From NCBI GenBank assembly GCA_035547395.1, contig DASZVA010000010.1, positions 74,471 through 138,470 of the forward strand: DNA of 64,000 nt. Direction: 5' to 3'. The position numbers and the translations under genes are program-made. Positions 2,485 to 30,664 of the stretch are shown piece by piece. Within the stretch, counting starts at the first letter, position 1. Each line of letters begins with the position of its first letter. A model generated the notes under the pieces. The model made no database searches, had not been told where the DNA came from, and saw nothing but the letters and a program-made list of their open reading frames with translations. This stretch comes from Candidatus Peribacteraceae bacterium (GTDB lineage: Bacteria; Patescibacteriota; Gracilibacteria; Peribacterales; Peribacteraceae).

Positions 2485-3468
2485 ATGATGACCTGGATGC
2501 GATGTTCCGTTCGTCTCGCCGGTCTTTGTCTGGTCCCGCTTCTGCTCTCGGCATGCATGCGGGGCGGATCTGATCAACCCGCGATCAATTTCATCGGCAT
2601 CGGCACGGGAACGCTCGTCACCGACGTGAACGCGATCCATTTCAGAAACACGTTCAAGACGTCTGAGACGAAACTCGTCGGAGTGGTGTCATTCGCGCAT
2701 ATCGCACAAGGCAGTACCGTGCAGGCAACGTGGTTCTCGCCGGATGAACGCGTACCGCCGCTCGGCCGCACCACGATCACGACTGAATCCGGTGCGAAGA
2801 TCGCCCGCTTCAGCTTCGCATCCAAGGAACCATGGAAACCGGCTCCGTACGAACTGCGGATCGACGCCTCGACCGGCAAGGGCGAAAACCTCAAAACCGA
2901 CAGCGGGACGCTGGCATTTTTCATCGGCATGACGCAGCCGGACATCGACGCGTACAAAAAGGATTACGCCGCCTATCAAAAAACCGTCGCAGAGCAGAAC
3001 GCAGCCGCGGAAGCACAGCAGGCCGCAGAGAGCGCGCTCGCGCAGCAGGCTGCCCGCTTCATGGACGCGCGCAGGGCGTTCGTCGTCTTCAAGGGCAATC
3101 TGACGGGCGGCGGCACCGACTACGTGATCCAGGGGAGCGACACGACGGTTGAAGACGCGGCGCCTCCGGGAGGTGGGGCGGCTCCCGGCGTTCTCTATGC
3201 GGCGGCACTGAAACAGTTCGCGATTCTGGACGGATCGGGCAATGTCCTTCTCGGAGTGCAGAAAAAATCCAACGGATTCAACGCGCTCAAGTCGGGCAGC
3301 GGTACGTTTTATGACAAACTGCCGCGCGGCGCCGATCTGCAGATGGCGGTGCTGCCGTCGGGTTCCATCGCACTGACCTGGACCGATGCATCACAAAAAA
3401 CGTGCACGCTCGAGGCAACGGTCACGAAGGATCATCGGTACGGGGCGGGGAGTTCGGAATGTCGTTAA
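2485..3468 (+). CDS. hypothetical lipoprotein
   Basis: N-terminal signal peptide ending in the lipobox LLLSAC. 327 aa with no recognisable catalytic motif. A strong terminator follows. Confidence 0.6.
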   Translation: MMTWMRCSVRLAGLCLVPLLLSACMRGGSDQPAINFIGIGTGTLVTDVNAIHFRNTFKTSETKLVGVVSFAHIAQGSTVQATWFSPDERVPPLGRTTITTESGAKIARFSFASKEPWKPAPYELRIDASTGKGENLKTDSGTLAFFIGMTQPDIDAYKKDYAAYQKTVAEQNAAAEAQQAAESALAQQAARFMDARRAFVVFKGNLTGGGTDYVIQGSDTTVEDAAPPGGGAAPGVLYAAALKQFAILDGSGNVLLGVQKKSNGFNALKSGSGTFYDKLPRGADLQMAVLPSGSIALTWTDASQKTCTLEATVTKDHRYGAGSSECR

Positions 3469-3629: not shown

Positions 3630-6600
3630 TTATCGCCCCGTCAGTTCCCGAATCCGATCCCGTTTTCTGATGATAATCATCGTAATCCAGCCGACGTTGC
3701 TGCCAGCAAGCAGTGCGATGATGATCCAGGCATAGATCGGAATACCGCCGACGGGTGCGGCACCGTGGACCGGCTCGGAGACCATCACCTGAATGACGGG
3801 CAGCGCGACCTGCAATTCTTTCTGCGTGTCGAGCGGCAGGACCGACGGCGGTTCCAGGATGAAGTCGCGCTTCTCGACAGTGCCTCCTGAGACGTGGATT
3901 TCCAGCTGATGCTTGCCGGTTTCGACGTCGTGGAAGGTTGCGATACCTCCGCTGTTGGTCACCGCGATCTTCGGCGTCGAGAAGAGGACGACCGGCGTAT
4001 TCGCGTACGGATGACCGAAGGAGTCAAACACGCTCATGGCGAGTGTGGCGACGAGCGTTTGGCCATCCGTATTTTTCTTGATGGTCGTCGTGTACGTCTG
4101 CGGAGGCGGCAGTTTGGCGGAAGCAGGCGGCTGCGTCGGAGCGCCATGCAGACGCAGCGCGAAGAGCGCGATGCCGTCGCGTCCGCTGCGTCTCAGGATG
4201 CCCGCACCGTTTTGCATTGCACCGATGCCGCTTGCGATCTGTCCGGCGCTCCACTGAATGCCGGCGTTCGTCACGTCAGAGACCGATTGCTGTGCGGCAT
4301 CGAGATTGTCCGCGACCGTCTGACCGAGCTGCGTCGTCACCGTCGTCGTCTGCATCGCGAGTTCGTTCGCGTTCTGACCGAGGATAGTTGTTGCATCGGC
4401 AAGCTGCTGCGCTGCGTCCTGCAATGCATTCGTCGTCTGGTCCGTCGCGTCTGCGATGCTCTGCGCGATCTGAACAGTCGTTTGCGAGAGAGTTGTTGCA
4501 GTCGTGTCCGTGATCGCGCCCGTCGTTTGCGTGATGGAGTTGATCGCGGTCTGCGTCGTTGCGACTGTCAGAGTTCCCATGTCCGCGATCGATTGGCCCG
4601 CCGTGCGCGCGAACTGCGCGGTCGTCTGACCGACGGTGCCGAGTTGTTCGATTCTGTTCAGCGCGAGCTCACTCGTATCCTGCATCGTCTGCAACGCGAC
4701 TTGCGCGGCCGACGTCACCGATTGCGTGACAGCCGACACGCCCGATTGCATCGTCGACGCGATTTGCGTCACGGCCGCCTGCGTGCTCTGCGTCGCGCTT
4801 TGCAACGCCGTGCCGATCGTCTGGCCGACGTTTCCGACGGAGCTCGCGATCGACTTGGACGCTGACGTTGCCGCCAACGACGTGAGCGTTGTGAGATCCT
4901 GCACCGATTGCGCGATGTTCTGCGAGATGCCTTTTGTCTGCGTGATACCCGTCTGCACCGATTGAGTGACTGACGATTGGATTTCACCCAGCGCTTGAAT
5001 GATTGGTGCGACGATCGGCACGGAATACTCAAGCCCCGCTCCGATGTGGGCGGCAATCTGTTGCTGCAGTTCCTGCTGTATCTGTTCGGATGTTTGTGAT
5101 GACGACGCGGACGAGGTTTGCGTAGATGTCGCCGTCGATGATGTTTGCTGCGTCGCAGTGGAACTGGCTGCCGCGGATGACGTCTGCTCTGCGACCGGTT
5201 GCGGAGCGGTGACGATCGTCACGACGTAGGTGCCGTTCGTACCGTAGGTACCGCCGCTGACGAATCCTGCTTCACTCGAGGAACTTGCAGCCGCGCTTGA
5301 GGAACTCGCGACCGGCGTCAGCAGGTAGCCGAAGGACACATTCTTGATTTGTCCGCCGGTGCCGAAGCTGACGAGGCGGCTGTTTGTGCTCGTCGTCGTG
5401 TAGCCCGTCGGCGCTTCCGCCGCGATCACGAAGCTGCCGGATGACGTCGGGAGATTGCTGAATATGTATGTACCCGAAGCATTCGATTTCGTCGTGAGGG
5501 AGATCGTTCCGCCCGTGCCGGTGGTTCCGCTGAGTTCCACGATCGTGCCGGAGAAGATCTGCGTTTCGGTCACAGCCTTTAGTCCATTGCTGTCACTATC
5601 GACGAAGACCGAACCTGTGAGGGTGCTCGGCGAAACGTAACCGAAGTTCGCGCGGATCACGGCGCCCGTCCCAAGCACGTTGCTGCCGGTGCTGTTGAAT
5701 GTGGTGCGCAGGTACGTGCCGCTGAGCGTGGACGGATCGATGCTGATGGCGTAGCCATTGCTTCCACTGATCACCGTGCCGCTGAAGGCGTACTGGCCGA
5801 GGCTGTTTGTCGTCGTCGTGAGATTGAGCAGCGCTCCCGTCAGTGTGGAACCGCTGAGGGTGACGGTGACATTATTGAATCCGGTCGATTCATCGCCCGT
5901 GCGCACCCCGTTGCCGTTGTCGTCATACCAGACGTAGCCGACGATCGAGCCGGTGGCTGACGCGCTGTTTGCAAAGTTCCAGTTCACGTTATTGCCGCTG
6001 TCGGTACAGTGATCGCTGTTCTTGTGACAAACGAGCGTGGCACCACCCGTTGCATCGCTGTCCTTCACATCCAAGTAACTCAAGCTCTGCGTGCCGCTGT
6101 CACCATCGAGCAGAATGTGTGCGCCGGTTCCGCTTGTAGTGGAACGAATCGAAAGGAGATTCGATGCAGCGCCGTTTATCGCGAGCGCACCCGAGAAGCT
6201 CTGGCGACTCGTCGGATCGAAGAAGAGTTTGGCCGCACTGCTGACTGCTTTCGTGAAGTTGTAGAAGAGCGTCGATCCACTGATCGTCTGATTGGTTCCA
6301 TCAAGAATGAAGTTATTGTTTCTCTGTGTGATCGATCCTGCATCAAGCAAGTTGCCTGCGAGGTTGATCTGACGATTCGAACTCGTCGGGTCGAGGGTGC
6401 TGTCTGCGATCTGTAGATTCCCATTCACATCCAGGTTCGCGCCGAGTGTGACCACACCAGAGCCGCTGTTCTGATAGCCATCCGCGAGGTGTGCGACTTC
6501 GGATGCGGAGAGCGCGCGATTGTAGATGCGGACGTCGTCGATGTTTCCTCTGAACCAATACGATGAAGCTGAGTTGAGATTTCCAAGAGTCGTAAGGCCG

Positions 6601-9600
6601 CTTGTGAAATTTGAATTAGAATAACTTGTGGTCCCTTGTGATACTCCGTTTACATAAAATCTCTGAGTAGTGCCGTTATAAGTAGACATAACGTGATACC
6701 AAACTCCGTTTGTTGTGCTAGGGCCGGCCACTTCTCCGTTTGAACTTCCCCAGCCTGCATACACAATCGGTGAGTTAGGCTTTCGTATGAATCCGAAACC
6801 GGATGTTGCAGAATCGAATCCATTCCATAATGGAATTTCATATGTGCTCGATTGACGCTCAAACTTGATCCATCCTCCAAAAGTGAAAGCAGCTGTGCCA
6901 TTGATTGCTCGTACATTTGTTGCAACATAATCATCCACTCCATCGAAGTGCAGCGACTTCGGATCATAGAACCGCGTACTTGGTACCGATGTGCTCCACG
7001 TCGGTCCGTTCGTCAGCGTTCCATTGTTTCCATTGCCCGAGGAATCCCTCGCGATCGAGCTGCCGGTGCCGTCATCCATCTTCCAGTAGCCAACGAGTCC
7101 ATTGTTAATTGTTACATTGTTAAATGGTTGGGACTCGGTGAGTGTGGATGCTCCCACGTTACGCATGATCACCGTTCCCGTTCCAGAGTTGAACGTTCCA
7201 CCCGTGTGCAGCCAGCTGCCCGAGAGGGTAATCGTCTGGCCTCCGTTCACATTCAAGGTTCCTCCGCTGATCGTCAGCGCGCCGCTCAAGGTCATCTGAC
7301 TGTTCGGCGGGTTAAAGACCGTGGAGCCAGTGGAACCAATGATCACATTCTGATACGGAATGTTCTTCATCTGCACGGCACTGCTCCCTGCGGAGTCGTA
7401 CCAGACGGTGGAGTTGAGTTGCGACAGGAAGTTTGTGTAACTCAACGTTTCATCACCATGCAACCGCAGTGTGGTACCGGTGCCGATGATGAGGCTCTTA
7501 TTCACCGTCAGGTTGTTGCCGTTCAGGTCCAGGGTTCCACCCGTCAGCACCAGGTTCTGTCCGGTCGTGTTCATGACGAGTGCGCCCGAGAGCGTGACGG
7601 TATTTGCGGATTTGGCAATGACGACCTGCGGCGAGAAGGTGCCGCTTCTGAGAGCGATCGTTTGCGCGCTTCCGCCTGTCAGTTTGAGAGTGACGTTACT
7701 GTTTCCGAAAGTTTCGTTGTAGCCTGTCAGTTGAGATTCCGCAAAGTTTCCGCTGAGAGCAATGGTAATCGGATTGCTTGCGGACCAGATGTGAGTGAAA
7801 CCGGAACAGGCCGTATTGCTCTGTATCGTGAGATTATGAGACACGGTGAAGCTGTCCAAGAATGTCGTGGTCGATGTGCCTCCGACACATGATGCGAAGC
7901 CCAAGAGAGTCAGATCATAGAATGCAGCGCCTCCGCTTGTGATGCTCGTGCTCGTAATGTGGGAGAATGTGAGCGTTCCGCTGCGTGCCGTGAATGTGCC
8001 CGCGTTCGTGAACGCATGAGCAACGACGATGTTATGGCTGGTGACGCCGCCGTCATTCGAGACATCGAGAGTCTTTCCGCTGCTGATCGTAAAATCATAG
8101 AAGGTACTGTCGCCGGAAAGCTGCGCACTCTGGTTGATCGTCGTCGTGCCAGTTGAGGTTGATCCGCCCCTTGAGAGCGTCGCCGTTCCCGTGCCGTTGA
8201 CATTGAGGTTGGCATTGAACGCACCGCTCGCGACGGTGAACGACGGACCGGCACCCGTCATTTGCAATGTGACGTTCGCATTTCCGAAAGTCTCGTTAAA
8301 GCCGGTTATCTGCGATTCCGTGAAGTCGCCCTGGAGCGTAATCGTGATCGGACTGGTTGCGGACCAAACATGAGTATAACCCGAACAGCCTGTTGTGCTT
8401 TGTACGGTTAGTGTGTGCGACACGGTGAAACTGTCTGCAAACGTTGTAGTCTTGTTGCTGTCGCCGCATGTTCCATGACCCGTAAGAGTCAGATTGTAGA
8501 GAATGGCTCCTCCTGTAGTGAATGTTGTCGCGTTGCTTTCGGCTAATGTGAGCGTACCGCTATTGTGCGTGAAGGTGCCGCCCGTTCGGATGAAGTCATT
8601 TGCGAATGTTCCCGTACCGCTCGTCGCCACGAACGTACCGGCATCCTGATTGAATGTTCCATTATCCGTAATCGCACTTCCTCCATTTGATCCTGTAAAT
8701 GTTCCACCACTCATGGTGAATGCAGAGTTAATCGTCAGTGCATTGTTTCCCTGAATCATGTTTCCATTTTCGTGCAGGTAGCTCGTCGTGAGTGTGCCGC
8801 CGAGGTTCAATGTTGAGCCGGTCCAGACATTCACTGTCTTTCCTGTCGTCACGGTGAGATTGTTGCTGCTCATCGAGTAGAGAGATGTGATGTCGCTGTA
8901 GCCCGTTGCTTTTGCAATTGTCAGCATCGCACTCGTTACCGGTGCACCGACGCTCACATGCGTGCCCGTTCCACTGCGCACAATTAATTGGTTCTTGATG
9001 AGCGTCATGCCCGTCATGCTTCCTCCCGAACCCGTCGAGACCGTCACTGCCTTGTTCGTACTTCCGGAGATGTACAAGGCAACGACCGTCCCGCCGGTGA
9101 GGTTACTGATGCCGCCGATCGTAAATTGTCCGCCGTTATCCACGGTTCCCGTTCCCGAGACCGCAGCTCCGTTCAGGCTGACCGCGACTTTCACGCCCGT
9201 GAGCGGTGTGGTTCCACCGGTATTGCTGTAGACCGTTCCGGTGATGTTGTAGGTCCTGCTGAAGCTCCAGTTCGTGTTGTTGCCGCTGTCTGCACATCCG
9301 CCGTCACCCGTGTGACACGTGAGCGTCGCGCCTCCCGTGGCGTCGGAATCTTTCACATCGAGGTAGCGCAGGTTCTGCGTGCCGCTGTCACCGTCGAGCA
9401 GAATGTGCGCACCGGTTCCCGTTGCAGTCGACCGGATCTTGAGCAGTCCGCCCTGCACGCCCATCAGGTTCAGACTTCCGGATGCAGACTGGCGACCGGT
9501 GTAATCAAAGAAGAGAGACGCGGCATTGGTCGCGAGCTTCGTCAGGTTCCAGAAGATTGTTGATCCGCTGAGCGTCTGATTCGCTGTCGTGCTGAGTGTC

Positions 9601-12600
9601 ACCGTATCACTGTGCGGCGTGAAGTTTCCGACGTTGCTCCAGTTGCCCTTCGCAGTTACTCCGTAGTTGCTTGCCGATGCATCGAGATTTCCCGAGACGA
9701 TGTTCAGGTTGCCGTTCACTGTCAGCGCCGCACCGAGGACGTAATTTCCGCTGCCTGTGTTCTGATAGCCGCTGGCTAGATGTGAGACTTCCGATGCAGA
9801 GAGCGCGCGGTTGTAGATGCGGACGTCATCGAGTGAGCCGATCATGTAGCTGGTACGTGAAATGCCGATAGCCGGCGGTTCTGCACCGATGTCCATTTCG
9901 CCAGTCGGTATGCCCTGCGTACCACTGATCGTTGCTGTTCCTTGTGACACGCCATTGATGTAGAGCGTCATCGTCGTGCCGTTGATCGTCATGACTGCAT
10001 GACGCCAGACGTTATCGTTTGCTGTCGAACTGGAAACTCTATAGACCGTTCCATTGTAATATTGGGCTTGTATAACTCCGGAAATGTACGCCAATCCCCA
10101 CAGATATCGTGTTCCTATTTGCGTGTCTTTTCTGATAATACCGATATCGGAACCCGCGGTCGTGCTCTTTACCCACGTTGCAACCGTGAGATGATTACTG
10201 AGTTGAAGGGCACTTGAGTCAGGCACTGACACATAATCATCCACACCATCGAAATGCAGCGACTTCGGATCATAGAATCGCGTGTTCGGGACACTGGTGC
10301 TCCACGTCGGTCCGTTCGTCAGCGTTCCATTGTTTCCATTGCCGGAAGAATCACGTGCAATGCTTGAACCCGTTCCATCATCCAACTTCCAGTAACCTAC
10401 TAATCCATTGTTAAGCGTCAAATTGTTAAATGTTAGTGCACCACTCATGGTGTAATTGTTTCCTGTCCCCTTCAGCGTCACGGTGTTTGAGTGCGTCGTG
10501 AGGGTGCCGTAGTTGGTGTAGTTTCCTCCGACAGTAATGTTGTAATTCGATGCGGATGCATCGAGATTTCCATTTTCGATGTCGAGACTGCCGCTCATCG
10601 CGAGCGCCGCACCCATGGTGTAGGTGCCGCTGCCGATCAGCTGATTGCCGTTTGCAAGCGCAGAGACTTCCGCAGCCGTGAGCGCGCGGTTGTAGATGCG
10701 GACATCGTCGAGGAGACCACCAAAATAATTATAGCCTTTTGCAATATAAAGAGATGAGCTGGCAAATGAGAAGGATGCGGATGTCTGATACACGCCACCA
10801 ATGTACAGTTTGCCAGTAGTACCATTGGAAGTTAATGTGTAAAGATGCCATGCGCCATCCGATGGTTGTGAATAGCTTCCAGCAAGGCCGGGGCCTGCTT
10901 TGATGAATATAGTTGATCCGATGTATCCAAATTCTAGTGCGTTATTTGAGACGGCATCATTTACCCATGATGGATAATTACTAACCGGTCCTCCCTTAGC
11001 CCAAAAACTTATTGTTCCTGATCCAGAGAGTCCAACAGGAACACTCACATAATTACTCGTTCCGTTGAAACTCAAACTGTAGGGGTCATGGAACCTCGTC
11101 GTAGGCACATCCGTACTCCACGTCGGCCCGTTCACCAATGTTCCATTATTCCCATTGCCCGAACTATCCACGGCCGTGGCTCCCGTCCCATCGTCGAATT
11201 TCCAATATCCGACAAGTCCTCTTCCTGCACCGAAGGTGAGGTTGTTGAAGCTGCTGGTTTCATTGATGGATGTGTTTCCCTGTCCGATCATCATCACCGT
11301 TCCGGTTCCCGCATTGAAGGAACCGCCGCTGTGGATCCAGCTTCCGCTTAAGGTAATGGTATTGGCATTCGTCACCGCAAGCGTGCCGCCCGTGAGCGTC
11401 AGGTTGCCGAAGACGTTGAGGTTCGTTGCAGAAGAGGGGAGCTGGAACGTCGTGTTTGCTCCATTAATTCCCAATTTGTTGTAGACGGTATTGATGATCT
11501 TCGCAGTCGCATGATTGCTCTGACCGACGTAATTCACCGTACTTACTTCATCCGTCGTAAACGTACCCGCGATGCTAGAGCCCGTTCCACCGAGGATGAG
11601 CGTTCCGCTGTTCGTGAACGCAGTTCCGCTCTTCACAGTCAAGACTGTTCCGGTTCCGAGAATATTCAACGTCACGCCGGTGTTGATGAGCACGACGCCG
11701 CTGTTTTGCACCGTCATGCTTCCCACTGTCGCGCCACTCATGATCACTGTTCTCAGCGGTATTGCACTCACGCTGTTGTTATCGACGATGACATCACCGT
11801 ATGTCTGGTTGGCTGCTTTTTTGTAGATGGTGCCGGCTGCGCTGTTGACGTTTGCTGTGGCTCCATATGCTTGGTAGGTGGTATTGCCGAAACTTATTCC
11901 GGACGTGAGGACAATCGCGATGCGGCCGCCTCCTCCGCCGTGGTAACCGCTTCCGCCATTGGCCTTCACTGCTCCGTTTCCGGAGACGGTCGCTGCGGTG
12001 ATATTCACCGTTCCGCCCGCGCCCGCATGGACGCCGCTTCCGCCTTCGCCGTTTGCCGTGATGGATCCGTTGATGGTGACGGCATTACTTGCATTGATGA
12101 TTACGGCGCCGCCGCCAATGGAATCATAACCAGCGGAACCCATGTTCAGCGGATTCACCAGCGATCCGTACGAGCTGGTCGGGTTTGCTCCGCCGGATCC
12201 GCCGTATGTGCCGCCGCCGTAATACGGAGCGATGCCGCCGCCGGGTCCGGAGTTCACGGCGCTGTCTCTGAATCCGAGATTGTTTGCCGAGAGCAGACCG
12301 CCCGTTTGTACAGTGACGTTCGTTGCGTTCAATGTGGCGGCGCCTCCCTGGTTGCTGTGCATCGACGGATTGCCGTCCATTTCCAGCGTGCCACCGCTCT
12401 GGATGATGACATCGCCGAACGTATAGTTGTTCGTCCCATCAGAACCGAGACGCAGGCTGCGCAGATGTCCCGTACCGCCGATTGTGAGAGACGTGCGATC
12501 GGCGCTGTTCAGGTAAATGGTTCCGGCAAAGCCGTTACTTCCACCCTTTGCCTGCAACGTTCCCTTGAATGCATCTGTCGTGACGTTTGCAAGACTGATG

Positions 12601-15600: not shown

Positions 15601-18600
15601 GAGACATCCAGGCTGGAGCCCGAGTCGATCGTCAGGTCGCCGTTTACGGTCAGCGCGGACCCGAGCAGATAGGTGCGGTTCGGACCCGCTGAGCCGCCGT
15701 TGCCGTATCCCTGCGACAACTGCGTGATTTCCGCGTCGGTCAGGCTCCGGCCGTAGAGACGCATGTCGTCGATGTTTCCGTCGAAGATGGTGGAGCTGAA
15801 GTAGGCGGAGTTTGTTTTTCCGAACGTGAGCGGGTTGGATGAGGAGTTTGGAATGCTGATGGAAGCGGCGGTCTTGGTGCCGTCGAGGTACAGACCGTTG
15901 CCGGTGACGGCCACCTGGTGCCAGCTGCCGGTCGTCACCGCAGACGAGCTGCTGAAGATGCTGCTGGCGCCGTTGTAGTCAAAGACAAGCTTGCCTCCTT
16001 CCGCGCCGTCGCGGACCAGGAACTGATAGCCGTAGGAGCTGTCCGCTTTCGCTGCGATGATGCTGTGCGAGGTGTTGGTGTTGAGCTTGATCCAGGCCGA
16101 GATGGTGAAGTTGCTGCCCGTGACGTTGTAGGCGGTTGCGGTGCCCGCGTCCGCGTACTTGCTGCTGCCGAGTGCCAGGCTGTACGGATCGCTGAAGTGG
16201 AGGGAAGGCGTATCGCTGCTCCAGGTGGGGCTGCCGTAGAGTGTTGCCGTGTGGCTGTTGCCGCTGCTGTCAGCCGCCGACGTGCCGGCGCCGTCATCGA
16301 ACTTCCAGTAGCCGATGAGACTTGCCGCGCTGATGCCCGCTGCATCGCCGATCGTCACACCCTTCACCGTATTGCCGCCCAGCACCAGCGTCTGGCTACC
16401 GCCGCCGTCGAGCGTGATGCCGGTGCCCGTCGTGAACGTTCCGCTGTTTGCCACGAGGGAGCCCGAGACCGTGAGCACGTTGCTGCTCATACTCATGGTG
16501 CCGAGCACTTTCAGGGTGTTCGCATTGGTCGCGGCGCCCGGGTTGTACGTATCGCCGGTCCGGACAAAGAGCTGCATGCCCTGGCTCATGGTCAGCACAT
16601 TGGAAGAGTCCACGCTGTAGACATCCGTGATATCACGGTAACCGCTGTTCTGACCGATCTTCAGATCGCTGTTCGTGATGGCAACGGATCCGCTGTCGCT
16701 GCGCACGATCAGGTTGTGTTCGTACAGATCCACACCTGTCATCGTGCCGCCGGAGCCGAGCGTCACGGTTGCGCCCTTGGCGCTGTTGCCGCTGATGTAG
16801 AGCGTGATGACGGTGCCGCCCGTCATCGTCACATCGGAGATCGTGTACTGGCCGCCGCTGTCCGTCGTGCCCGTGCCGCTCACCGCACCGCCGTTCAGGC
16901 TGACTGCCACTTTCACGTTCGATCCGATCACGGTTGTGCCGGTATCCGTGTAGACGGTTCCGGTAATTTTTTTGACGGGTGCGAAGTACCAGTTGGTGTT
17001 GTCGCCGCTGTCGATACAGCCCGATATGCAATTGATGACGGAGGCATCGAGGTTATCGTTATCCTCCACGTCGACGTTGCTGATGCTGCGCGATCCCTGC
17101 GGATCGATCTTTGCCTGAGTACCGCTTTGCGTGGAGCGCAGGGAGAGGTGGTTTCCAGTTGTGCCGTTCAGTGTCAGTGTGTGTGTGACCGTCTGGGTCG
17201 CGGTGGCGGCGAGCGTCAGCGTCTGCGCCGCGCTCACGCTCTTTGTCAGATTGTAGAAGGTCGTTGAACCGCTCATGGTCTGATCGCCGCCGCTGAGGAC
17301 GACCGTTCCCGTTCCGGCGGAGAACGACGCATTGGCAGCCGATGTCTTGAGCCAGGCGCCGCTCAGATTGAGCGTGCCGCCGTTCGTGGTTGCGAGCGTG
17401 CCGCCCGAGAGTGTCAGGTTGCCCTTCACGGTGATGCTTGATCCCGTGAGGTTGAACACGGCGCTGCCTGTCGATCCAATGACGAGATTGCTGTACGTGA
17501 AGTTCTTCAGTATTTCGGTCTGCGCGGATTCGTTGTACAAGACTGTGCTGCCGGTGTTCAGCGTCGGGGTCGTCACGGTTTCGCTGCCGTGGAGTCGCAG
17601 CGTGGCGCCGCTCTGTGCTTTGAATCCGGAGGTGGACGTTGTCAGGTTATTGCCGTTCAGACTGAGCACGCCGCCGCTGAGCGTGAGTTTTGTCGATGAC
17701 ATCGACAGGGCGGATGCGAGCACGGCTTGTCCAGCGGATTTGTGCACGTACCAGAACGGCGAGCTGAGCGTGCCGGCGCTGCTCGTGATCGTCTGTGTCC
17801 CGGTCCCGTCGAACACGGTGTTTGCGTACAGCCGCGATCCGGCATTGGACAGTGTAAAGTCGCCCGCCAGGTTGATCGTGAAGTTGCTGCTTGCGGTTGC
17901 GCTCCCCAAGTACTGGGCGTAGGAGGAACTGCCGTTGAAGACCAGATTACCGCCGACCGTGAGAGTGGGCGTGTTGGTGGCGACGATCGTGGCTCCATAG
18001 AAATTCGTCTGGTTTTGGATCGTGAGATCATTCGCGACCGTGAAGGCGTCTGCGAGCGTGAGCGTTGTCATGCTGCAGCACGACGTACCCACGTTGTAGA
18101 AGAGCACGTCGTGGAACGCGGCATTGCCCGTCGTCACGGTGTAGGAACTCGCGTTGTAAAATTCCATCGTGCCGTCGTTGTGGTTGAAAGTGCCGCCGGT
18201 CCGGTTGAAGGTGCTCTTCGTCGTGAAGACGCCCGTCGGCGCGGTGAATGTTCCCGCCGACTGCGTGAACGTACCGTTATCCGTCAGAGTCTGTCCGTAG
18301 CTGTTCCACGTACCGCCGGACTGATTGATAGAGCTGACGGTCATGCCGCTGCCGCCCGTGAACGTTCCGCTTGAGAGGGTCACGGCCCCGAAGCTTGGGG
18401 AGGCGCTGCCGCTTGCCGTAAAGATATCACTTGCACTGTCGAGTGTGAGTGCCGCGGAGGTGGAGAGGGCTCCGCTTCCGATCACGGTTCCGCTCGTCTT
18501 ACCGATGGTCCACGAGCCGCCGCTGACGTAGCCGGCGGTCTTCGTCACGATCTGGTTGTTGGTGCTTCCGTCAAAATTCACGTTGGCGTAGAGCCTTGCC

Positions 18601-21600
18601 GCCGCATTTGTTTCGGTCAGATTGCCCGCCAGATCGATCGTGAAGTTGCTGCCCGCAGTCGCATTGCCGACATATTGCGTATAGCCCGAACTGCCGTTCA
18701 GGAGCAGATTCCCGCCCACCGTGATCGTCGGCGTGCCGCTACCGTAGATATTTGCTCCATAGACACCCGTCTGGTTTTGGATCGTGAGATCATTCGTGAC
18801 CGTGAAGCCGTCTGCGAGCGTGAGCGTTGTCGCGCTGCAGCATGACGTGCCCACGTTGTAGAAGAGCACGTCGTAGAACGTTGCTCCGCCCGTCGTCACC
18901 GTGTAGGAACTCGCGTTGTAAAATTCCATCCTGCTGCTGTTTGCGTTGAACGTTCCGCCCGTTCTAGTGAAGGTACCCTCCGTGGTGAAGATGCCGCTGC
19001 TCGGCGCATTGAAGGTCCCCGCCGACTGCGTGAAGGCGCCGTTGTCCGTCAGGAATGTGCCGAGGCTGTTCCACGTACCGCCGGATTGATTGATGGAACT
19101 GACGGTCATGTTGTCGCCGCTCGTCATGGTTCCTCCCGAGATCGTCACGGCGCCGAAGCTGCTGGCGGTCGTGCCGCTTGCCGAAAATACGTCGCTCGCG
19201 CTGTCGAGCGTGAGAGAGGCGCTGGTCGTCAGTGTGCCGCCGCCTATCACGGTGCCGCTCGTCTTATTGATTGTCCAGGCGCTGTAACTGCTCACCGTTC
19301 CGGCCGTTTTGGTCACGATCTGATTGTTCGTTGCGCCGTCGAAATTGAGATCGGCGTTCAGGCTGGCGCTTGAGTCGCTCATCGTGACGTCGCCTGCGAC
19401 GTTGATGGCAAAGTCGGAGCCGGCGGAACTGGAGCCTATGTAGATGGTATAGCCCGAAGGAATATCAACGTTTCCGTCGACCGTAATAGTCGGTGACCCC
19501 GATCCGTAGAGGTTGTAGTAATAGGAATTGACGCTGTTTTGGATGGTCAGGTTACCCGCTACCGTAAAGCTGTCTGCGAGCGTGAGCGTGGCATAGGTGG
19601 TATTGGTTTTGCCGATGATCAGGTTATAGAAGGTGGGACTGCCCGACGTGACCGAGAGATTCCCGTTCGCCAGGATCTCGACGGTTCCGTTGTTGTGATT
19701 GAACGTGCCGCCGGTTCTGGCGAATCCGCTGCTGACGGTCAGCGTGTCGGACGTCGCATCGAAGACGCCGCCGGATTGCGAGAAGCTCGTGACGCTCACG
19801 GCACCGCTGCCGCTCATAAATGTACCGCCGCTCTGCGTGAACGGGCCGGTGGTGAGCGTGTAGCCCCCGAGTGCCACGCTGCCCGTGCTCACGTGGAGCG
19901 TGTTGCTGGCCATGCTGATATTGCTGGAGAGCGTCATGACGCCGGAGCTTTTATCGACCGTCCATGTTCCGGCGCCGATTGTCCCGGCGGTTTGCCAGAC
20001 GGTCTGCGCGCCGGTTCCGTCGAAGGTGAGATTGGCATTCAGGCGAGCCGAGGAATCGTTCATGTCCAGGCTGCCCTTGAGGTTGATGTTGAAGTTGGAT
20101 GCCGCGCTGCCATTACCGATGTAGAACACATTGGACGACGCGATGGACATGTTCCCGTTGACCGTCATGGTGGGCAACCCCGATCCGTACAGGTTGTAGT
20201 AATAGGAATTGACGCTGTTTTGCAACCTCACATCGTGTGCCACGTTGATGGCATCCTCGAGTGTCACTGTGACGTACGATGTCACTGTTTTATCAAATGT
20301 CAGATCGTAGAACGTGGCGCCGTCCGTCGTGATCGTGGCGGTGTTGTTCATCAAGAACTTCGTGGTTCCGTTATTGTGGCTGAAGCTTCCACCTGTGCGC
20401 TGGAATGTATTGGCATAGGAACCCGTTCCGCTCGTCGCGGTGAATGTTCCCGCACTCTGGCTGAAGGTGCCGTTATCGGTGAAGTTCGATCCGCCGCTTG
20501 AGCCCGTGAACGTACCGCCGCTCATCGTGAACGCAGTATTGATGGTCATCGCGTTGTTTCCCTGCACGATATTTCCGTTCTGATGCAGATAGCTCGTCGT
20601 AATCGTGCCGCCGAGGTTCAGCGTCGATCCCGTCCAGACATTGAGCGTCTTGCCGCTCGTCACCGTCAGGTTGTTGCTGCTCATGGAGTAGAGCGCCGCG
20701 ATATCGCCGTAGCCGCTTGCTTTCGCCGCGTTCAATATGCCTGCCGTGATCGGCTGACCGATGCTCACGTGCGTGCCGGTGCCGCTGCGCACGATCAGTT
20801 GATCCTTGATGAGCGTCATGCCCGTCATGCTGCCGCCGCTTCCGGTTGCGACCGTCACTGCCTTGTTCGTGCTGCTGCCCGACACGTACAAGGCAACGAC
20901 CGTACCGCCGGTGAGGTTCGTGAGGCCCGAAATCACGTACTGGCCGCCCGCGTCCGTCGTGCCGGTTCCGCTCACTGCCGCACCATTGAGCGAGACGGCG
21001 ACTTTTACACCCGATCCGATCGGCGTCGTGGCGTTTGCATCCGAGTAGACCGTACCGGTGATCGAGGTGGTCGTCGCGAACGTCCAGTTGGTGTTATTGC
21101 TGCTGTCAGTACAGTTGCTGCAAGTGAGCGACGCGCCGAGCGACGCATCCGAATCTTTTACGTCCAGATAGCTGAGCGACTGCGTACCGCTTGAGCCGTC
21201 GAGGATAATCTGCGCTCCCGTTCCGGCATGCGTCGAGCGGACGGAGAGCAGGTTGCCCGCGGTGCCATTGAGCGTCAGCGCGCCGGATACACTCTGCTGC
21301 GACGTGTAGTCGAAGAAGAGGCTCGCTGCCGCACTTACACTCTTCGTCAGGTTGTAGAAAACGGTCGAACCGCTGAGTGTTTGATTCGTTCCGTTGAGTG
21401 TGACCGTTCCGCTTTGCGGCGTGAGTATGCCGGCGTTCTGCATATTTCCACCGAGGGTGATGCCGTAGTTGTGGGACGAAACATCCAGTGTGGTGTCTCC
21501 CAGGTTCAGATTGCCGTTCACGGTAAGTGCGGACCCGAGCGTGTAGGTACCCGATCCGCTCGTCCGGTAGCCGGCGGCCAGATGCGCCACTTCCGACGCA

Positions 21601-26100: not shown

Positions 26101-26881
26101 TGGGCATCAAGAAACTCGGGAACACGTTTCCCGGCTGACCGATCTGTCCGTCGGTGAGCAGTCCGGCGCTGAGTTCGATGAGGTCTGAGGATTCAGAAGA
26201 AACAGAAGACTCAGAGGATGCAGAAGACTCAGAGGATTCAGAAGAAGAAGCAGATGCCGATGATTGCTCTGCATTTTTCACGCTGCCCGTAGCCGTCGTT
26301 CCGGTTCCGCTTGCCGCGCCGCTTCCGGACTTGATTGCTCCCGTGCTATTTTTTCCCGTTGCGATGTGCGCGGTTGTTCCGGTTTCCGTTGCGCCCGAAT
26401 TCGAGATTGCACTCAATGACGCGGATGCGGATGAACGCTTCGCAAGCGTGTCCCGATGCGCTGCATCGAGTGCTGTGATGGAATTGACCGATGAAGAAAC
26501 GGAAGACGATTGTGCAGATATCGAGCAGCACCGCTCCGACGGTGCGGCCGACGAAGCCGATAATGCCGCATCCACGGAGGGATGCTGCTGGGATGATGTG
26601 GACGAAACAGAAGAGGCAAAAATATTCTTGATTTGTGAAGACATTGCATCAGCCGATGATGCGATGCTCTGTGCAGACGATGCTGCAATTTTCAAATTTC
26701 CATTTTCAATTTTCAATTTTTCCGCGCCTGTTCCTGTTTCACTTCCAGTACTCGTCAGCACACCGCCGCTCGCAATTTGTGCGCGCAGTGCGATGTGTGA
26801 TGTTGCAAGTATCGCACACGCGACGATCGTGATCAGTGCAAAGACGTGTAGCCGCAGAGGTTTTGTGTGAGTGTTAGGCAA
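23105..26881 (-). CDS. 1,258-aa secreted repeat protein: Ser-rich linkers, two copies of a beta-sandwich module of about 300 aa, and an A/T/Q-rich helical region. Translationally coupled to the giant gene.
   Basis: Signal-peptide-like N-terminus (KPLRLHVFALITIVACAILATSHIALRA). The apparent start is TTG at 26881. The stop TGA (23105..23107) overlaps the giant gene's ATG (23106..23108) as ATGA. Module A (~25200..26110) and module B (~23110..24010) share F.WG(M/V)(V/L)AMNPDSD.Y and E.VP.GF.V.D..P....GTLI.W.G....T.TF.Y.Y.AP. Confidence 0.8.
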   Translation of the reverse strand: MPNTHTKPLRLHVFALITIVACAILATSHIALRAQIASGGVLTSTGSETGTGAEKLKIENGNLKIAASSAQSIASSADAMSSQIKNIFASSVSSTSSQQHPSVDAALSASSAAPSERCCSISAQSSSVSSSVNSITALDAAHRDTLAKRSSASASLSAISNSGATETGTTAHIATGKNSTGAIKSGSGAASGTGTTATGSVKNAEQSSASASSSESSESSASSESSVSSESSDLIELSAGLLTDGQIGQPGNVFPSFLMPKISDFSSIYDVQSRVHITLTDDAGQTSSATETVTDEKTDYRVTLDPPSSFRPGRYRIQATLDRTHSISDRLSNFFKKITGQTTQGDLLLLDTYFDWGMVAMNPDSDAYASNADVSIGAALADDQGNPLCIETLTGSFLHGSKATLKSFCSGTGDTLTLSSPDAGIATLRIEAGSGTVAQEKITIDNHPLITVKRSSVSQTTAGTGAVMTINVTTLATITGTMKEHVPAGFTVSDVTPAPTNILKNVDGTLIEWDGQFQAATTRTFTYVYIAPQSMPLMGLFGPVQISGTQEGEAVSAVSSSEEPSDSSSETSSAQASSIVSASASASSESVSVSSLDSSASANSSENSSVSSSEVGNSSNVDTTVSSHSSSLDSSLASSSVSLFERPQSDTSSFESSSVSSGSSDSSESSASSESSNPNPSPSPSPISSFFTHLLASLTFGDQNTVSFTEDRRWEVLSLSGSTASANNQSRTLTLERKAAVFQADSAPTFKLIDMQLDANDSRLQDEDHHLKTDIAYEQLLQTIVATQDVKQAVAEHIVTQQAQTIATQAINNDTVRNAAVDAVVTSGNGDASVTNLTDTVAQAVATSDDAKQQLADLAQKNTIVAKTVDQLATNDTKDKVIAALAQQATAGSGTIASDSVDQAVNDAVQTQTSVTRQAAVAAVQTITQASATTQVVTQALEKTQASSLKPQDTNVTASTGASVLKLTLKGPNGEAIKNPHFHFAVGSVDLVLDPIPSFTPGLYTLSVDVTNPITGETQTLTQQFAWGVLAMNPDSDIYKEGDTAHIDFGALDDHGEIVCDASLTLHVTAPDNTQQTLTTDDGSIAKTGTCGLKQAGFIGPDFDANLTLNQEGTYNLTLIGNIDGKMREISSTIIVKSNAPFIITRSAATRLWPFADSPMDITVAFNENIDGQVVDTVPEGFVIKDASPANYKLQTTDSSGTLIIWKGSWKAGDVKTFHYDYKAPEISPHFYLIGPLLIQSDTAFSGATLTSSGQTLP
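24823..24852 (-). repeat. in-frame hexanucleotide microsatellite (TAGGGC)3(TAGGGT)2 on the plus strand, encoding the NPNPSPSPSP linker
   Basis: Read directly: tagggc tagggc tagggc tagggt tagggt. The 16-nt string tagggttagggttgga recurs at 27716..27731. Confidence 0.9.
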
Positions 26882-26888
26882 TCAGACT

Positions 26889-26897
26889 ATTGTACCA
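26889..26897 (-). promoter_or_regulatory. candidate extended -10 element (TGGTACAAT on the minus strand) for the 1,258-aa/giant operon
   Basis: TGGTACAAT lies 7 nt upstream of the TTG start, inside a 187-nt AT-rich intergenic region (26882..27068). No convincing -35 element was seen. Confidence 0.3.
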
Positions 26898-27068
26898 AAA
26901 ATAGCGTTTTGGAGCGATCCTCAGGGGTTATACGAGACAATACTGAGCATATTTTGCAATATTTATTTATGATGAGACCATGAAAATAATTTTTTACATT
27001 AAAAATAATGAAACAACATTTTTTTTATAAATTGCATCACGGAAAAACGGCTGAAGGAAGAGGAAGAG

Positions 27069-27695: not shown

Positions 27696-27741
27696 GGTAG
27701 GATGAGGATTGGGATTAGGGTTAGGGTTGGAGAATAGCAGA

Positions 27742-30651: not shown

Positions 30652-30664
30652 GAACGAACCGATG

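What the first reader, a model, noticed from the sequence alone, without database searches (positions are those of the whole stretch)
3630..26881. Translationally coupled locus of 1,258-aa and 6,492-aa surface proteins: a giant modular adhesin-like gene with a partner
- A 19,479-nt ORF without a single stop occupies about 30% of the window.
- Its ATG overlaps the stop of the upstream 3.8-kb gene as ATGA, so the two are almost certainly co-translated from one AT-rich promoter region (26882..27068).
- The giant protein combines an N-terminal two-TM segment, an internal signal-like segment, six LamG lectin-type domains and six copies of a beta-helix cap module. The cap ends in the invariant C..C.DSGNNTNW.F signature, which I cannot assign to a named family.
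- It also carries four CarboxypepD_reg-like domains, a Gly-rich helix, two SdrD-B-like domains and a C-terminal TM anchor with a basic tail. It has no LPXTG signal even though a sortase is encoded 17 kb away.
- Both proteins contain an A/T/Q-rich helical stalk followed by beta-sandwich domain(s). This suggests a two-component surface fibre in which the stalks associate.
- No secretion-system, glycosylation or pilus genes flank the locus.
- It is a candidate attachment apparatus (cell-cell, host or particle) of unknown specificity.
Basis: partly seen in the sequence, partly recalled or inferred. Interest (0 to 1): 0.85.

Follow-up and report, generated by a model that had tools for sequence, protein, structure and literature searches.

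The report
Split giant surface fibre of Peribacteria
A candidate-phyla-radiation (Peribacteria) bacterium encodes a 6,492-residue membrane-anchored, lectin-studded surface fibre and a 1,258-residue partner that are one single protein in related genomes, so the two most likely rejoin outside the cell to form an attachment fibre of unknown target.

Summary
A 19,479-nt ORF (3630..23108, minus strand) starts at an ATG that overlaps the stop of a 1,258-aa gene (ATGA). The giant protein has six LamG domains, six Cys-capped beta-solenoid modules, two SdrD_B domains and a C-terminal TM anchor without LPXTG.

Relatives of the upstream protein are almost confined to Ca. Peribacteria/Peregrinibacteria. 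In seven related loci the same gene pair occurs, always with a stop/start overlap. In about 20 more distant loci the upstream protein is fused in frame to the front of the giant.

A conserved hairpin motif (ExRxWQIAxD) always sits at the joint. In fused forms it directly follows the MG-like beta-sandwich module. In split forms it is the mature N-terminus of the giant.

Best reading: this is a fission variant of a C-terminally anchored giant adhesin-like fibre, whose tip subunit re-docks on the hairpin. Docking is inferred, not shown.

The "cap" matches no curated family, but the module is widespread (6,380 protein clusters). The N-terminal 2-TM plus signal segment is a conserved extended leader.

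It is a new variant of a known but uncharacterised kind, of moderate interest.

The parts
26882..27068 (-). AT-rich intergenic region upstream of the 1,258-aa gene. It contains TGGTACAAT (26889-26897, an extended -10-like element) ending 7 nt before the TTG start, which suggests a very short or absent leader.
   Evidence: GC 0.316. Sequence read. The consensus scan gave no full -35/-10 promoter here, so promoter function is inferred.
23105..26881 (-). Upstream gene ('tip subunit'), 1,258 aa, TTG start.
   Evidence: Homologues are almost only in Peribacteria/Peregrinibacteria.
26774..26881 (-). Signal peptide of the tip subunit (aa 1-36, hydrophobic core aa 9-30, conserved ..RAQ motif).
   Evidence: Hydropathy. 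Conserved in P0002-P0004.
26177..26773 (-). S/A/T-rich low-complexity region (aa 37-235).
   Evidence: Sequence, alignment A1.
25232..26164 (-). MG-like beta-sandwich module 1 (aa ~240-550), an internal duplicate of module 2.
   Evidence: Alignment A1 and BLAST of the module against itself in relatives. Weak MG2 hit.
24782..25231 (-). Ser-rich linker (aa ~551-700).
   Evidence: Sequence, A1.
24725..24766 (-). VSFTEDRRWEVLSL (aa 706-719), a cis copy of the FxExRW(Q/E)(I/V) hairpin motif following module 1.
   Evidence: A1 consensus SFxEDxRWQxLVL. Homology to the WQIAND hairpin is by motif only.
24032..24574 (-). A/T/Q-rich region (aa ~770-950), presumed helical.
   Evidence: Composition. No family hit. 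No similarity to the giant's A/T/Q region.
23159..23989 (-). MG-like module 2 (aa 965-1241): tandem beta-sandwiches with the conserved disulphide pair C1060/C1091, ending ..APEISPHFYLIGPL. Proposed docking domain.
   Evidence: AF2 mean pLDDT 79.8. Foldseek best hits are MG domains of alpha2-macroglobulin/C3/TEP1 at E 2.5e-6. Invariant columns.
23105..23108 (-). ATGA stop/start overlap (translational coupling).
   Evidence: An overlap is conserved in all split relatives as ATGA, GTGA or TAATG.
3630..23108 (-). Giant gene, 6,492 aa.
22695..23108 (-). Extended leader (aa 1-138): TM1 (27-49), TM2 (56-84, invariant YGY), a linker with invariant E..L...E..HPY.P (aa 98-111), a signal-like TM3 (113-134) and an AQA site (136-138).
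   Evidence: Alignment A5. The local HMM also hits the N-termini of fused giants L012, L017 and L020, and a PrsW-family protease in L024.
22620..22664 (-). Docking hairpin TYTYTENRSWQIAND (aa 149-163), 10 residues after the predicted signal-peptidase site.
   Evidence: The motif occurs once in each of 34 loci, always at the joint. AF2 on the chimera predicts two strands with block pLDDT 83, flanked by linker below 50.
22209..22613 (-). Beta-solenoid start with the W.GGG.DN.WST..NWS motif (aa 166-300). A second copy is at aa 3245-3330 (13119-13376).
   Evidence: Internal repeats. No Pfam hit.
21564..22208 (-). LamG 1 (aa 301-515). Further LamG copies: 15702-16319, 13878-14531, 10659-11219, 9762-10406, 6471-7100.
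   Evidence: Pfam Laminin_G_3, E 9e-49 and 7e-57, 3+3 stretches. Boundaries.
21066..21563 (-). Beta-solenoid module with Cys-pair cap 1 (aa 516-681). Further copies: 16971-17474, 15162-15701, 13380-13877, 9249-9761, 5961-6470.
   Evidence: Alignment A2. AF2 pLDDT 87-98. No Pfam, NCBIfam or PDB relative. 6,380 cluster representatives match the module.
20709..21062 (-). Small beta-sandwich spacer 1 (CarboxypepD_reg-/CnaB-like, aa 683-800). Further copies: 16614-16970, 14799-15161, 8874-9245.
   Evidence: Sub-threshold CarboxypepD_reg at 18.5 bits. Internal repeats. AF2 pLDDT only ~55-60, with weak CnaB/SdrD_B fold hits.
17475..20531 (-). Four ~250-aa repeats, presumed beta-solenoid (aa ~860-1878). 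Related ~195-aa Cys-pair repeats lie at 7419-8579.
   Evidence: Self-comparison at 40-75% identity. No family hit.
11739..13118 (-). Gly-rich region made of two ~225-aa repeats (aa 3331-3790).
   Evidence: No Pfam or PDB match.
5319..5951 (-). Two SdrD_B domains (aa 5720-5930).
   Evidence: Pfam SdrD_B, 70.1 bits, 2 stretches.
4179..5318 (-). S/A/T linker plus A/T/Q-rich region (aa 5931-6310), the cell-proximal stalk.
   Evidence: Composition. Weak Apolipoprotein-like hit at 24 bits.
3774..4151 (-). Pro-rich segment plus Ig-like domain (aa 6320-6445), conserved with P0066, P0067, P0071 and L029.
   Evidence: Weak CarboxypepD_reg/Big_1 hits.
3633..3746 (-). C-terminal TM helix (aa 6455-6480) and basic tail RKRDRIRELTGR. 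No sorting motif.

Best explanation
The locus encodes a two-piece giant cell-surface fibre of a Ca. Peribacteria (CPR/Patescibacteria) bacterium. It arose by fission of a gene that is a single ORF in most relatives.

Shown:
- Both ORFs are real.
- The gene pair and its stop/start overlap are conserved.
- Fused and split forms share one joint, which is marked by an invariant hairpin motif.

Inferred mechanism:
- One transcript is translated in a coupled way. Termination at the upstream TGA is followed by re-initiation at the overlapping ATG. This delivers both proteins to the same membrane site in a 1:1 ratio.
- The 1,258-aa protein is exported through an ordinary signal peptide.
- The giant enters the membrane through a conserved extended leader: two TM helices, an HPYLP linker, and a signal-like helix ending in AQA. 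The leader is cut after AQA138.
- The cut exposes the hairpin TYTYTENRSWQIAND. The hairpin packs onto the C-terminal MG-like beta-sandwich of the small protein, restoring non-covalently the continuity seen in the fused proteins.
- The giant stays in the cytoplasmic membrane through its C-terminal TM helix and basic tail.
- Its Ig-like domain, Pro-rich segment and A/T/Q-rich region span the envelope.
- About 5,500 residues of beta-solenoid segments, small beta-sandwich spacers and six LamG lectin-type domains project outward, with the small protein as the distal tip.
- The likely role is attachment to glycans on a host or partner cell, or on a particle.
For: Taxon:
- The 28 loci with a homologue of the upstream protein are nearly all Peribacteria/Peregrinibacteria MAGs.

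Pair conserved:
- L001/L005, L002/L003, L004/L008, L009, L010 and L013/L035 carry a homologue followed by a 4,241-6,656-aa gene.
- Stop/start overlaps in these loci are ATGA, TAATG or GTGA.

Fusion in relatives:
- L007 (3,610 aa), L026 (4,499 aa) and L029 (4,308 aa) are complete single ORFs.
- More than 15 further truncated ORFs, plus P0009-11, P0051-54, P0058, P0059 and P0064, carry the module in frame ahead of the giant part.

Joint:
- ExRxWQIAxD occurs exactly once per locus in 34 loci. It sits either after ..APDISPxFYLxGPL or right after a signal peptide.
- What follows the motif varies (solenoid start, LamG, DUF2341 or CarboxypepD-like). The motif therefore belongs with the preceding domain.

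Independent second fission:
- In Parcubacteria locus L034 a stand-alone 381-aa module is followed by a 2,253-aa protein. The mature N-terminus of that protein is ..FEEIRQWQIASD.

Structure prediction:
- In the AF2 model of the chimera, the hairpin forms two strands with pLDDT about 83, although the linker is below 50.

Orientation:
- Relatives end in a TM plus basic tail, or in SLH-like (read by eye, not tested against Pfam), or in FN3-like C-termini. The C-terminus is therefore the cell-proximal end.

Export and surface features:
- Signal peptides, LamG x6, SdrD_B x2, and all 20 Cys paired.

Literature:
- Large, strain-variable extracellular proteins in Peribacteria have been proposed to mediate attachment (PMC4736985).
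- Peregrinibacteria top the bacterial phyla for proteins above 5,000 aa, and these are uncharacterised (PMC11573180).
- Giant surface proteins with concanavalin-type domains in other Patescibacteria are proposed host-interaction factors (PMC13059738).
Against: - Docking is not demonstrated. No model coordinates or PAE could be inspected, so the pLDDT of the hairpin is only indirect evidence. The MSA had 16 sequences.
- Cleavage of the leader at AQA is predicted, not shown. If the leader is not cleaved, the giant's N-terminus stays membrane-tethered and the geometry changes to a loop anchored at both ends.
- There are no expression or proteomic data.
- The LamG ligand is unknown, and no host is known.
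- Most of the giant (beta-solenoid and Gly-rich parts) matches no characterised family, so an enzymatic or structural-envelope role cannot be excluded.
- Only the first 731 nt of the giant are confirmed by an independent assembly.
Confidence: 0.6

Rival explanations
1. One reading: a two-component fibre in which the A/T/Q-rich helical stalks of the two proteins pair, as in a coiled-coil.
For: Both proteins contain an A/T/Q-rich region followed by beta-sandwich domains.
Against: BLASTP finds no significant similarity between the two regions (best E 0.41). In fused relatives both regions lie in one chain, separated by thousands of residues. The conserved element at the fission point is the hairpin, not the stalks.
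Confidence: 0.08
2. After fission the two proteins no longer associate. The small protein is a freely secreted or separately retained MG-like protein. The hairpin is only an N-terminal structural cap of the giant.
For: Docking is unproven. The small protein has its own signal peptide and no anchor. In Parcubacteria locus L034 another gene lies between the two partners.
Against: The stop/start overlap is conserved in all Peribacteria split loci. The hairpin is invariant, while the domain that follows it varies. The hairpin has a hydrophobic face (Y, Y, W, I) that needs a partner. AF2 gives the hairpin high confidence in the context of the MG-like domain.
Confidence: 0.2
3. The giant is not primarily an adhesin. 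It would be an envelope scaffold or S-layer-like coat, or a glycan-degrading or predatory effector using its pectate-lyase-like beta-helices, as proposed for giant genes of Omnitrophota.
For: The best (non-significant) fold matches of the solenoid are PL3 pectate lyase and phage tailspike. LamG belongs to the concanavalin-like lectin/glucanase superfamily (Pfam description). Some relatives carry C-termini that read by eye as SLH-like.
Against: No catalytic family is detected anywhere in the protein. Fold matches have E >= 0.11. The gene is single-copy and very long, with a TM anchor, which fits a fibre rather than a lattice.
Confidence: 0.1
4. Artefact: the giant ORF, or the split, results from mis-assembly or a sequencing frameshift.
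For: The gene is repeat-rich. Only the first 731 nt are covered by an independent contig, and the short-read contig ends inside the gene.
Against: Repeats are at most 82% identical at the DNA level. GC3 bias is consistent over 19.5 kb. Orthologues of 4,241-6,656 aa occur in other MAGs. The 138-aa leader between the two genes is conserved at the protein level in six other assemblies. The junction is identical in an independent assembly.
Confidence: 0.03

Closest known systems
Large/huge extracellular proteins of Ca. Peribacteria/Peregrinibacteria (Anantharaman et al. 2016, PMC4736985; 'huge proteins' survey 2024, PMC11573180)
   Same: Same taxon. Very large, predicted extracellular proteins that vary between strains, were proposed to mediate attachment, and remain uncharacterised. 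Sources name the relatives 'hypothetical protein' or 'DUF2341 domain-containing protein'.
   Different: Those papers do not describe the module architecture, the split/fused relationship, the WQIAND hairpin or the extended leader. The proteins reported in 2016 were 1,219-3,861 aa.
Giant surface proteins of other Patescibacteria epibionts (Absconditicoccaceae; PMC13059738)
   Same: Proteins above 1,500 aa with TM or signal segments and adhesion-type domains, including concanavalin A-like ones, proposed to recognise the host.
   Different: Different lineage and domain set. No homology was tested here, and no two-gene split has been described.
Gram-positive MSCRAMM/Sdr-type wall-anchored adhesins
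   Same: N-terminal signal, modular beta-sandwich spacers including SdrD_B domains, and a C-terminal hydrophobic segment with a basic tail. A sortase is present in the genome.
   Different: There is no LPXTG or related motif, so anchoring is by the TM helix itself. The bulk of the protein is beta-solenoid plus LamG, not an A-domain with B-repeats.
Donor-strand complementation in chaperone-usher pili, and tethered-strand domains after autoproteolysis (SEA, GAIN). Analogy drawn from general knowledge.
   Same: The N-terminal strand(s) of one polypeptide bind the beta-sandwich of the preceding one, joining subunits non-covalently. Here this is proposed for the hairpin and the MG-like domain.
   Different: No chaperone or usher genes are present. 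The domain is MG-like rather than pilin-like. Complementation is inferred only. The AF2 sandwich already appears complete, so this would be edge augmentation rather than completion of a missing strand.
Extended signal peptides of very large exported proteins (ESPR of autotransporters/TPS proteins; YSIRK-G/S). Analogy drawn from general knowledge.
   Same: A conserved N-terminal extension placed before an ordinary signal peptide, specifically on very large surface proteins.
   Different: Here the extension is a 2-TM hairpin plus an invariant E..L...E..HPY.P linker. There is no sequence relation to ESPR or YSIRK, and the module is also found on a PrsW-family protease.
Consecutive giant extracellular proteins Giant1-5 of Apilactobacillus kunkeei (PMC12863079; only the abstract as shown was read)
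   Same: [quoted passage not shown]
   Different: Unrelated lineage. No evidence that those genes are pieces of one ancestral ORF. Not compared at the sequence level here.

Membership tests
Peribacteria/Peregrinibacteria large extracellular proteins (descriptive class, PMC4736985, PMC11573180) | Encoded in a Peribacteria/Peregrinibacteria genome. | tested here: met
   Homologous loci are nearly all titled Ca. Peribacteria, Peribacteraceae or Peregrinibacteria. Closest relatives are 55-85% identical.
Peribacteria/Peregrinibacteria large extracellular proteins (descriptive class, PMC4736985, PMC11573180) | Very large (>1,200 aa, or >5,000 aa for 'huge') and predicted exported. | tested here: met
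   6,492 and 1,258 aa. Signal-type N-termini and a C-terminal TM.
Sortase-anchored LPXTG surface proteins (MSCRAMM/Sdr) | C-terminal LPXTG-type motif directly before the hydrophobic segment and basic tail. | tested here: not met
   No LPXTG, NPXTG or LAXTG within 70 aa of the TM. The conserved C-termini of relatives show no such motif.
Sortase-anchored LPXTG surface proteins (MSCRAMM/Sdr) | SdrD_B / CnaB-type repeat domains. | tested here: met
   Pfam SdrD_B, 70.1 bits, 2 stretches.
RTX / type I-secreted giant adhesins (LapA, MpIBP, SiiE) | C-terminal RTX nonapeptide repeats (GGxGxD) and a T1SS signal, with an adjacent ABC/MFP/OMP. | tested here: not met
   Zero GGxGxD motifs. The C-terminus is a TM anchor. 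The only ABC/MFP genes are MacB/HlyD-type, about 34 kb away.
Autotransporter / two-partner-secretion beta-helix adhesins | C-terminal beta-barrel translocator, or a TpsB partner and TPS domain. | tested here: not met
   No such Pfam hits on the giant or its neighbours. The C-terminus is a single TM helix.
Alpha-2-macroglobulin / thioester-containing proteins | Thioester motif C(G/L)EQ and a thioester domain in addition to MG domains. | tested here: not met
   No CxEQ motif. Only MG-type beta-sandwiches: Foldseek E 2.5e-6, and Pfam MG2 below its cut-off.
Chaperone-usher donor-strand-exchange fibres | Periplasmic chaperone and usher genes; pilin fold lacking its G strand. | tested here: not met
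   No chaperone or usher families in the window. AF2 predicts a full sandwich. The resemblance is mechanistic only.
LamG / concanavalin-like lectin domain proteins (Pfam Laminin_G_3) | Significant match to PF13385. | tested here: met
   E 9e-49 and 7e-57, six stretches. Sugar binding itself is not testable here.
Split (two-gene) form of the Peribacteria giant-fibre family, as defined in this report | Upstream MG-like module gene; stop/start overlap; downstream giant with leader or signal followed by ExRxWQIAxD. | tested here: met

The most novel reading that the evidence does not exclude
The MG-like domain and the invariant ExRxWQIAxD hairpin together form a portable, non-covalent 'snap' connector. 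It lets giant surface fibres be encoded in pieces and joined outside the cell, and it has been exploited at least twice independently (Peribacteria and Parcubacteria).

In addition, the conserved 2-TM/HPYLP extended leader is shared with a PrsW-family intramembrane protease. It may be a dedicated recognition or processing module that licenses export and N-terminal release of these giants. That would amount to a CPR-specific assembly pathway for giant adhesins.
Probability: 0.3. Interest if true: 0.75.

Novelty: new variant of a known kind. Interest (0 to 1): 0.55.

Why it matters
CPR/Patescibacteria are thought to live attached to other cells, but the molecules that make contact are largely unknown. 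Peregrinibacteria carry more huge proteins than any other bacterial phylum, and none has been characterised.

This locus gives a concrete, testable anatomy for one such fibre:
- which end is anchored;
- which subunit is the distal tip;
- where the two polypeptides should join;
- which short peptide (TYTYTENRSWQIAND) and domain (upstream protein aa 965-1241) to test for binding.

If the hairpin-domain pair is a genuine non-covalent connector, it would be a new natural split-domain system for assembling very long extracellular structures. The HPYLP leader would be a new type of extended export signal.

The work also shows that the Cys-capped beta-solenoid module is a large, uncurated domain family (about 6,400 clusters at 50% identity) that deserves a database entry.

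Tried and rejected
Searches that led nowhere:
- Exact look-up of the 1,258-aa protein: not on record.
- tRNA scan: none found.
- NCBIfam on ten tiles: nothing.
- Pfam on tiles of the leader, the solenoid/cap, the 250-aa repeats and the Gly-rich region: nothing significant.
- PDB sequence searches with the Gly-rich tile, the cap profile and the MG-like-module profile: no relatives.
- Foldseek of the cap model against PDB: no match below E 0.1.
- Consensus promoter/terminator scans around both gene ends: uninformative.
The degenerate DNA pattern found only one JGI contig, already known as L013.
- Viral contigs: only four weak cap-module hits.
- Model coordinates are not exposed, so hairpin-domain contacts could not be measured.
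- No PrsW homologue in the window or in other fetched flanks.

Ideas considered and rejected:
- An internal start for the giant at V103 (GTG) or L110 (CTG). This would make aa 1-102 non-coding. Rejected because the 2-TM part is conserved as protein in five other lineages, with invariant W38, YGY, E85 and G88. L009, however, shows it can be lost.
- The leader being a product of the fission. Rejected because fused giants L012, L017 and L020 carry it at their own N-terminus.
- Sortase anchoring, RTX/T1SS secretion, and thioester chemistry.
- Stalk-stalk homology.
- Coding antisense ORFs inside the giant.

Full report
**1.

- The minus strand carries an uninterrupted 6,492-codon ORF (3630..23108, ATG start).
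- Immediately upstream lies a 1,258-codon ORF (23105..26881). The two meet as ...CCATGATCC, an ATGA stop/start overlap.
- The upstream gene starts with TTG. This is the only start codon that retains its N-terminal hydrophobic segment, and an in-frame TGA immediately precedes it.
- The 187-nt spacer upstream (26882..27068) has 31.6% GC against about 57% elsewhere. It ends in TGGTACAAT, 7 nt before the TTG. No Shine-Dalgarno-like sequences are evident before genes of this window.
- The giant's frame shows the same GC3 bias (0.71) as neighbouring genes. The long antisense ORFs inside it are Arg/Ala-rich without GC3 bias, so they are spurious.
- Internal repeats are diverged: 30-80% identity at the protein level and at most 82% over 200-300 nt of DNA. 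This argues against repeat collapse.
- An independent Logan assembly of run SRR12170513 is 100% identical to window 22377..36107. That stretch includes the junction and the first 731 nt of the giant. The remainder of the giant has no independent assembly support.

**2. Anatomy of the giant**

Pfam recognises only:
- six Laminin_G_3 domains;
- two SdrD_B domains on tiles (70 bits);
- sub-threshold CarboxypepD_reg signals (18-21 bits against a cut-off of 32.3).

NCBIfam recognises nothing.

Self-comparison and motif searches define the modules in order:
- a leader (aa 1-138);
- a hairpin (aa 149-163);
- a solenoid start with the W.GGG.DN.WST..NWS motif (two copies);
- six LamG domains;
- six ~166-aa modules ending in C..C.DSGNNTNW.F;
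- four small beta-sandwich spacers;
- four ~250-aa repeats and two ~195-aa repeats;
- a Gly-rich pair of ~225-aa repeats;
- two SdrD_B domains;
- an S/A/T linker and an A/T/Q-rich region;
- a Pro-rich segment and an Ig-like domain;
- a TM helix and the tail RKRDRIRELTGR.

All 20 cysteines occur in pairs. There is no LPXTG-type motif, no RTX repeat and no thioester motif.

**3. The cap module**

- AlphaFold2 on aa 516-800, using an alignment of 44 sequences, predicts aa 516-680 as a regular stack of short strands (a beta-solenoid) with pLDDT 87-98. The following spacer reaches only about 55-60.
- Foldseek finds no solved structure below E 0.1. The nearest are PL3 pectate lyase and phage tailspike beta-helices.
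- No PDB sequence relative exists, and none of the homologues carries a Pfam annotation.
- A profile of the six copies matches 6,380 cluster representatives (791 at E <= 1e-30) out of 1.84 billion. Many of these are giants of up to 7,732 aa with up to 45 matching stretches.

**4. Who has this locus**

- Homologues of the upstream protein were found in 28 genome loci. Almost all are Ca. Peribacteria, Peribacteraceae or Peregrinibacteria MAGs. The window therefore comes from a CPR bacterium of that group.
- In L001/L005, L002/L003, L004/L008, L009, L010 and L013/L035 the homologue is a separate gene followed by a giant gene of 4,241, 6,656 or 4,699 aa where the length is known.
- In every one of these loci a start codon overlaps the upstream stop: ATGA, TAATG or GTGA. 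The flanking genes differ.
- The pair and its translational coupling are therefore conserved features, not chance.

**5. The pair is a split gene**

- In about 20 further loci the same module is the N-terminal part of one long ORF. Complete examples are 3,610 aa (L007), 4,499 aa (L026) and 4,308 aa (L029). Many others exceed 4,300 aa and run off the contig.
- Database proteins P0009-11, P0051-54, P0058 (7,400 aa), P0059 (7,732 aa) and P0064 show the same arrangement.
- The motif E.R.WQIA.D occurs exactly once in each of the 34 loci examined and in the window.
  - In fused ORFs it follows the end of the module (..YDAPDISPxFYLxGPL) after a linker of 4 to about 400 residues.
  - In split loci it follows a signal peptide at the start of the giant. 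In the window this reads AQA|VGGALAGQPTYTYTENRSWQIAND.
- What follows the motif differs between relatives: solenoid start, LamG, DUF2341 or a CarboxypepD-like spacer. The invariant neighbour of the hairpin is therefore the preceding MG-like module.
- A Parcubacteria locus (L034) shows an independent split. A 381-aa stand-alone module ends ..LLGPLGFYE. Two genes downstream lies a 2,253-aa protein whose mature N-terminus is ..KLVFEEIRQWQIASD.
- Within the upstream protein, the first copy of the module is followed, after a Ser-rich linker, by a similar motif (VSFTEDRRWEVLSL).

**6. Structure of the joint**

- I modelled a chimera of upstream protein aa 960-1258 joined to giant aa 139-170, with 16 aligned sequences.
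- AlphaFold2 gave mean pLDDT 79.8 and pTM 0.72, with tandem beta-sandwiches.
- The natural tails between them are disordered (pLDDT below 50). The strands TYTYTE and WQIAN are nevertheless predicted as strands, with block pLDDT 83.
- Foldseek places the sandwiches with the MG domains of alpha2-macroglobulin, C3, TEP1 and CD109 (E 2.5e-6, low TM-scores because the model is multi-domain). Pfam MG2 is weakly hit in 11 of 16 members.
- Coordinates are not exposed. Contact between hairpin and domain is therefore inferred from three things: the confidence pattern, the hydrophobic face of the hairpin, and the comparative data.

**7. Orientation and anchoring**

- The window's C-terminal Ig-like domain, TM helix and basic tail are shared with P0066, P0067, P0071 and L029.
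- Other family members end in C-termini that read by eye as SLH-like (P0058, P0059; not tested against Pfam) or in an FN3-like domain with an amphipathic helix (L007, L026, P0064).
- The C-terminus is thus the cell-proximal end, and the MG-like module is the distal tip.

**8. The leader**

- Residues 1-138 (two TM helices, a linker with invariant E98, L100, E104 and H107-P108-Y109-x-P111, then a signal-like helix and AQA) are conserved in L001, L002 (two tandem copies), L004, L010 and L013. L009 keeps only the signal-like part.
- A local HMM also finds the leader at the N-terminus of the fused giants L012 (two diverged copies), L017 and L020. It is therefore a family-wide extended signal peptide, not a by-product of fission.
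- Unexpectedly, the HMM also matches the N-terminus of a 610-aa PrsW-family intramembrane metalloprotease about 6 kb from the giant in L024 (Pfam PF13367, 59 bits).
- No PrsW gene lies in the window.
- What the 2-TM/HPYLP part does is unexplained. It may serve co-translational targeting, or recognition by such a protease.

**9. Mechanism proposed**

All steps are inferred unless marked as shown above.
- Coupled translation of both genes.
- Sec export of the tip subunit.
- Insertion of the giant's leader and cleavage after AQA138.
- Docking of the hairpin on the last MG-like sandwich.
- C-terminal membrane anchoring of the giant.
- An extended beta-solenoid/LamG shaft presenting lectin-type domains and the MG-like tip for attachment.

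My confidence by claim:
| Claim | Confidence |
|---|---|
| Real, conserved surface-protein pair | ~0.95 |
| Fission of a single ancestral gene | ~0.85 |
| Re-association through the hairpin | ~0.55 |
| Attachment function | ~0.6 |

**10. Comparison with what is known**

- Large, strain-variable extracellular proteins were noted in the first Peribacteria genomes and proposed to mediate attachment (PMC4736985).
- Peregrinibacteria rank first among bacterial phyla for proteins above 5,000 aa, with no functional assignment (PMC11573180).
- Other Patescibacteria epibionts carry giant surface proteins with concanavalin-type domains (PMC13059738).
- Sources call the relatives 'hypothetical protein' or 'DUF2341 domain-containing protein'.
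- The locus fails the defining tests for LPXTG/sortase, RTX/T1SS, autotransporter, thioester and chaperone-usher families (see the membership table). It resembles donor-strand or tethered-strand systems only in its proposed mechanism.

**11. Verdict**

- This is a genuine, conserved locus of a known but uncharacterised kind.
- New here are the split/fused relationship, the invariant joint hairpin, the conserved coupling and the extended leader.
- Interest is moderate (0.55). The novelty class is a new variant of a known kind.

Noticed in passing
L024:1262-3091 (-): A 610-aa PrsW-family intramembrane metalloprotease (PF13367, 59 bits) carries at its N-terminus the same TM/..E..HPYLP../TM module as the giant's leader. 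It lies about 6 kb from that genome's giant gene. This may point to a processing or recognition link.
   Followed up: partly
L034:1790-8935 (Ca. Parcubacteria, GCA_023140595.1): An independent split of the same architecture. A stand-alone 381-aa MG-like module is followed by a 620-aa DUF2341-LamG-FIMAH protein. Then comes a 2,253-aa protein whose mature N-terminus carries ..FEEIRQWQIASD.
   Followed up: partly
L002:13306-14400: The extended leader is duplicated in tandem at the start of the 6,656-aa orthologue. L012 also has two diverged copies. The membrane topology of such tandem leaders is unclear.
   Followed up: no
window 27069..37539 and 35..2440: The locus is embedded in a block of metal-homeostasis and membrane genes: P-type cation ATPase, VTT/DedA, a 969-aa CopC-CopD fusion, ZnuA/ABC ATPase/permease, a Fur-family gene, and two YibE/F paralogues. 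The same order occurs in the independent contig L036.
   Followed up: partly
window 40227..40850 (-): A sortase gene with no LPXTG substrate in the giant locus. Neither the giant nor its partner has a sorting motif, so the sortase's substrates in this genome remain unidentified.
   Followed up: partly
window 26889..26897 (-) and gene starts throughout: No Shine-Dalgarno-like sequences are evident upstream of the genes inspected. The 1,258-aa gene has TGGTACAAT 7 nt before its TTG start, which suggests a leaderless or near-leaderless mRNA with a non-AUG start.
   Followed up: no
L037-L040 (IMG/VR contigs): Four predicted viral contigs encode weak relatives (36-43% identity over 60-100 aa) of the Cys-capped beta-solenoid module.
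   Followed up: no
window 11511..13142 (+), 15918..17267 (+), 6852..7892 (+): Long antisense ORFs (up to 543 aa) lie inside the giant gene. They are Arg/Ala-rich without GC3 bias, so they are compositional artefacts that a gene caller might mis-annotate.
   Followed up: yes
L012 (aa ~1370-1536 of the fused ORF) and L027 (aa ~2613-3026): In two 'fused' relatives the linker between the MG-like module and the WQIAND hairpin is long (160-400 aa). It contains a degenerate signal-peptide-like stretch (..LLPRAIAQ.., ..LLFPPAIAQ..). These could be remnants of a formerly split state, or mis-assembly.
   Followed up: partly
window 2485..3468 (+), 30665..31429 (-), 50589..51671 (-): Several flanking ORFs of 250-360 aa have no Pfam match at all.
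   Followed up: no
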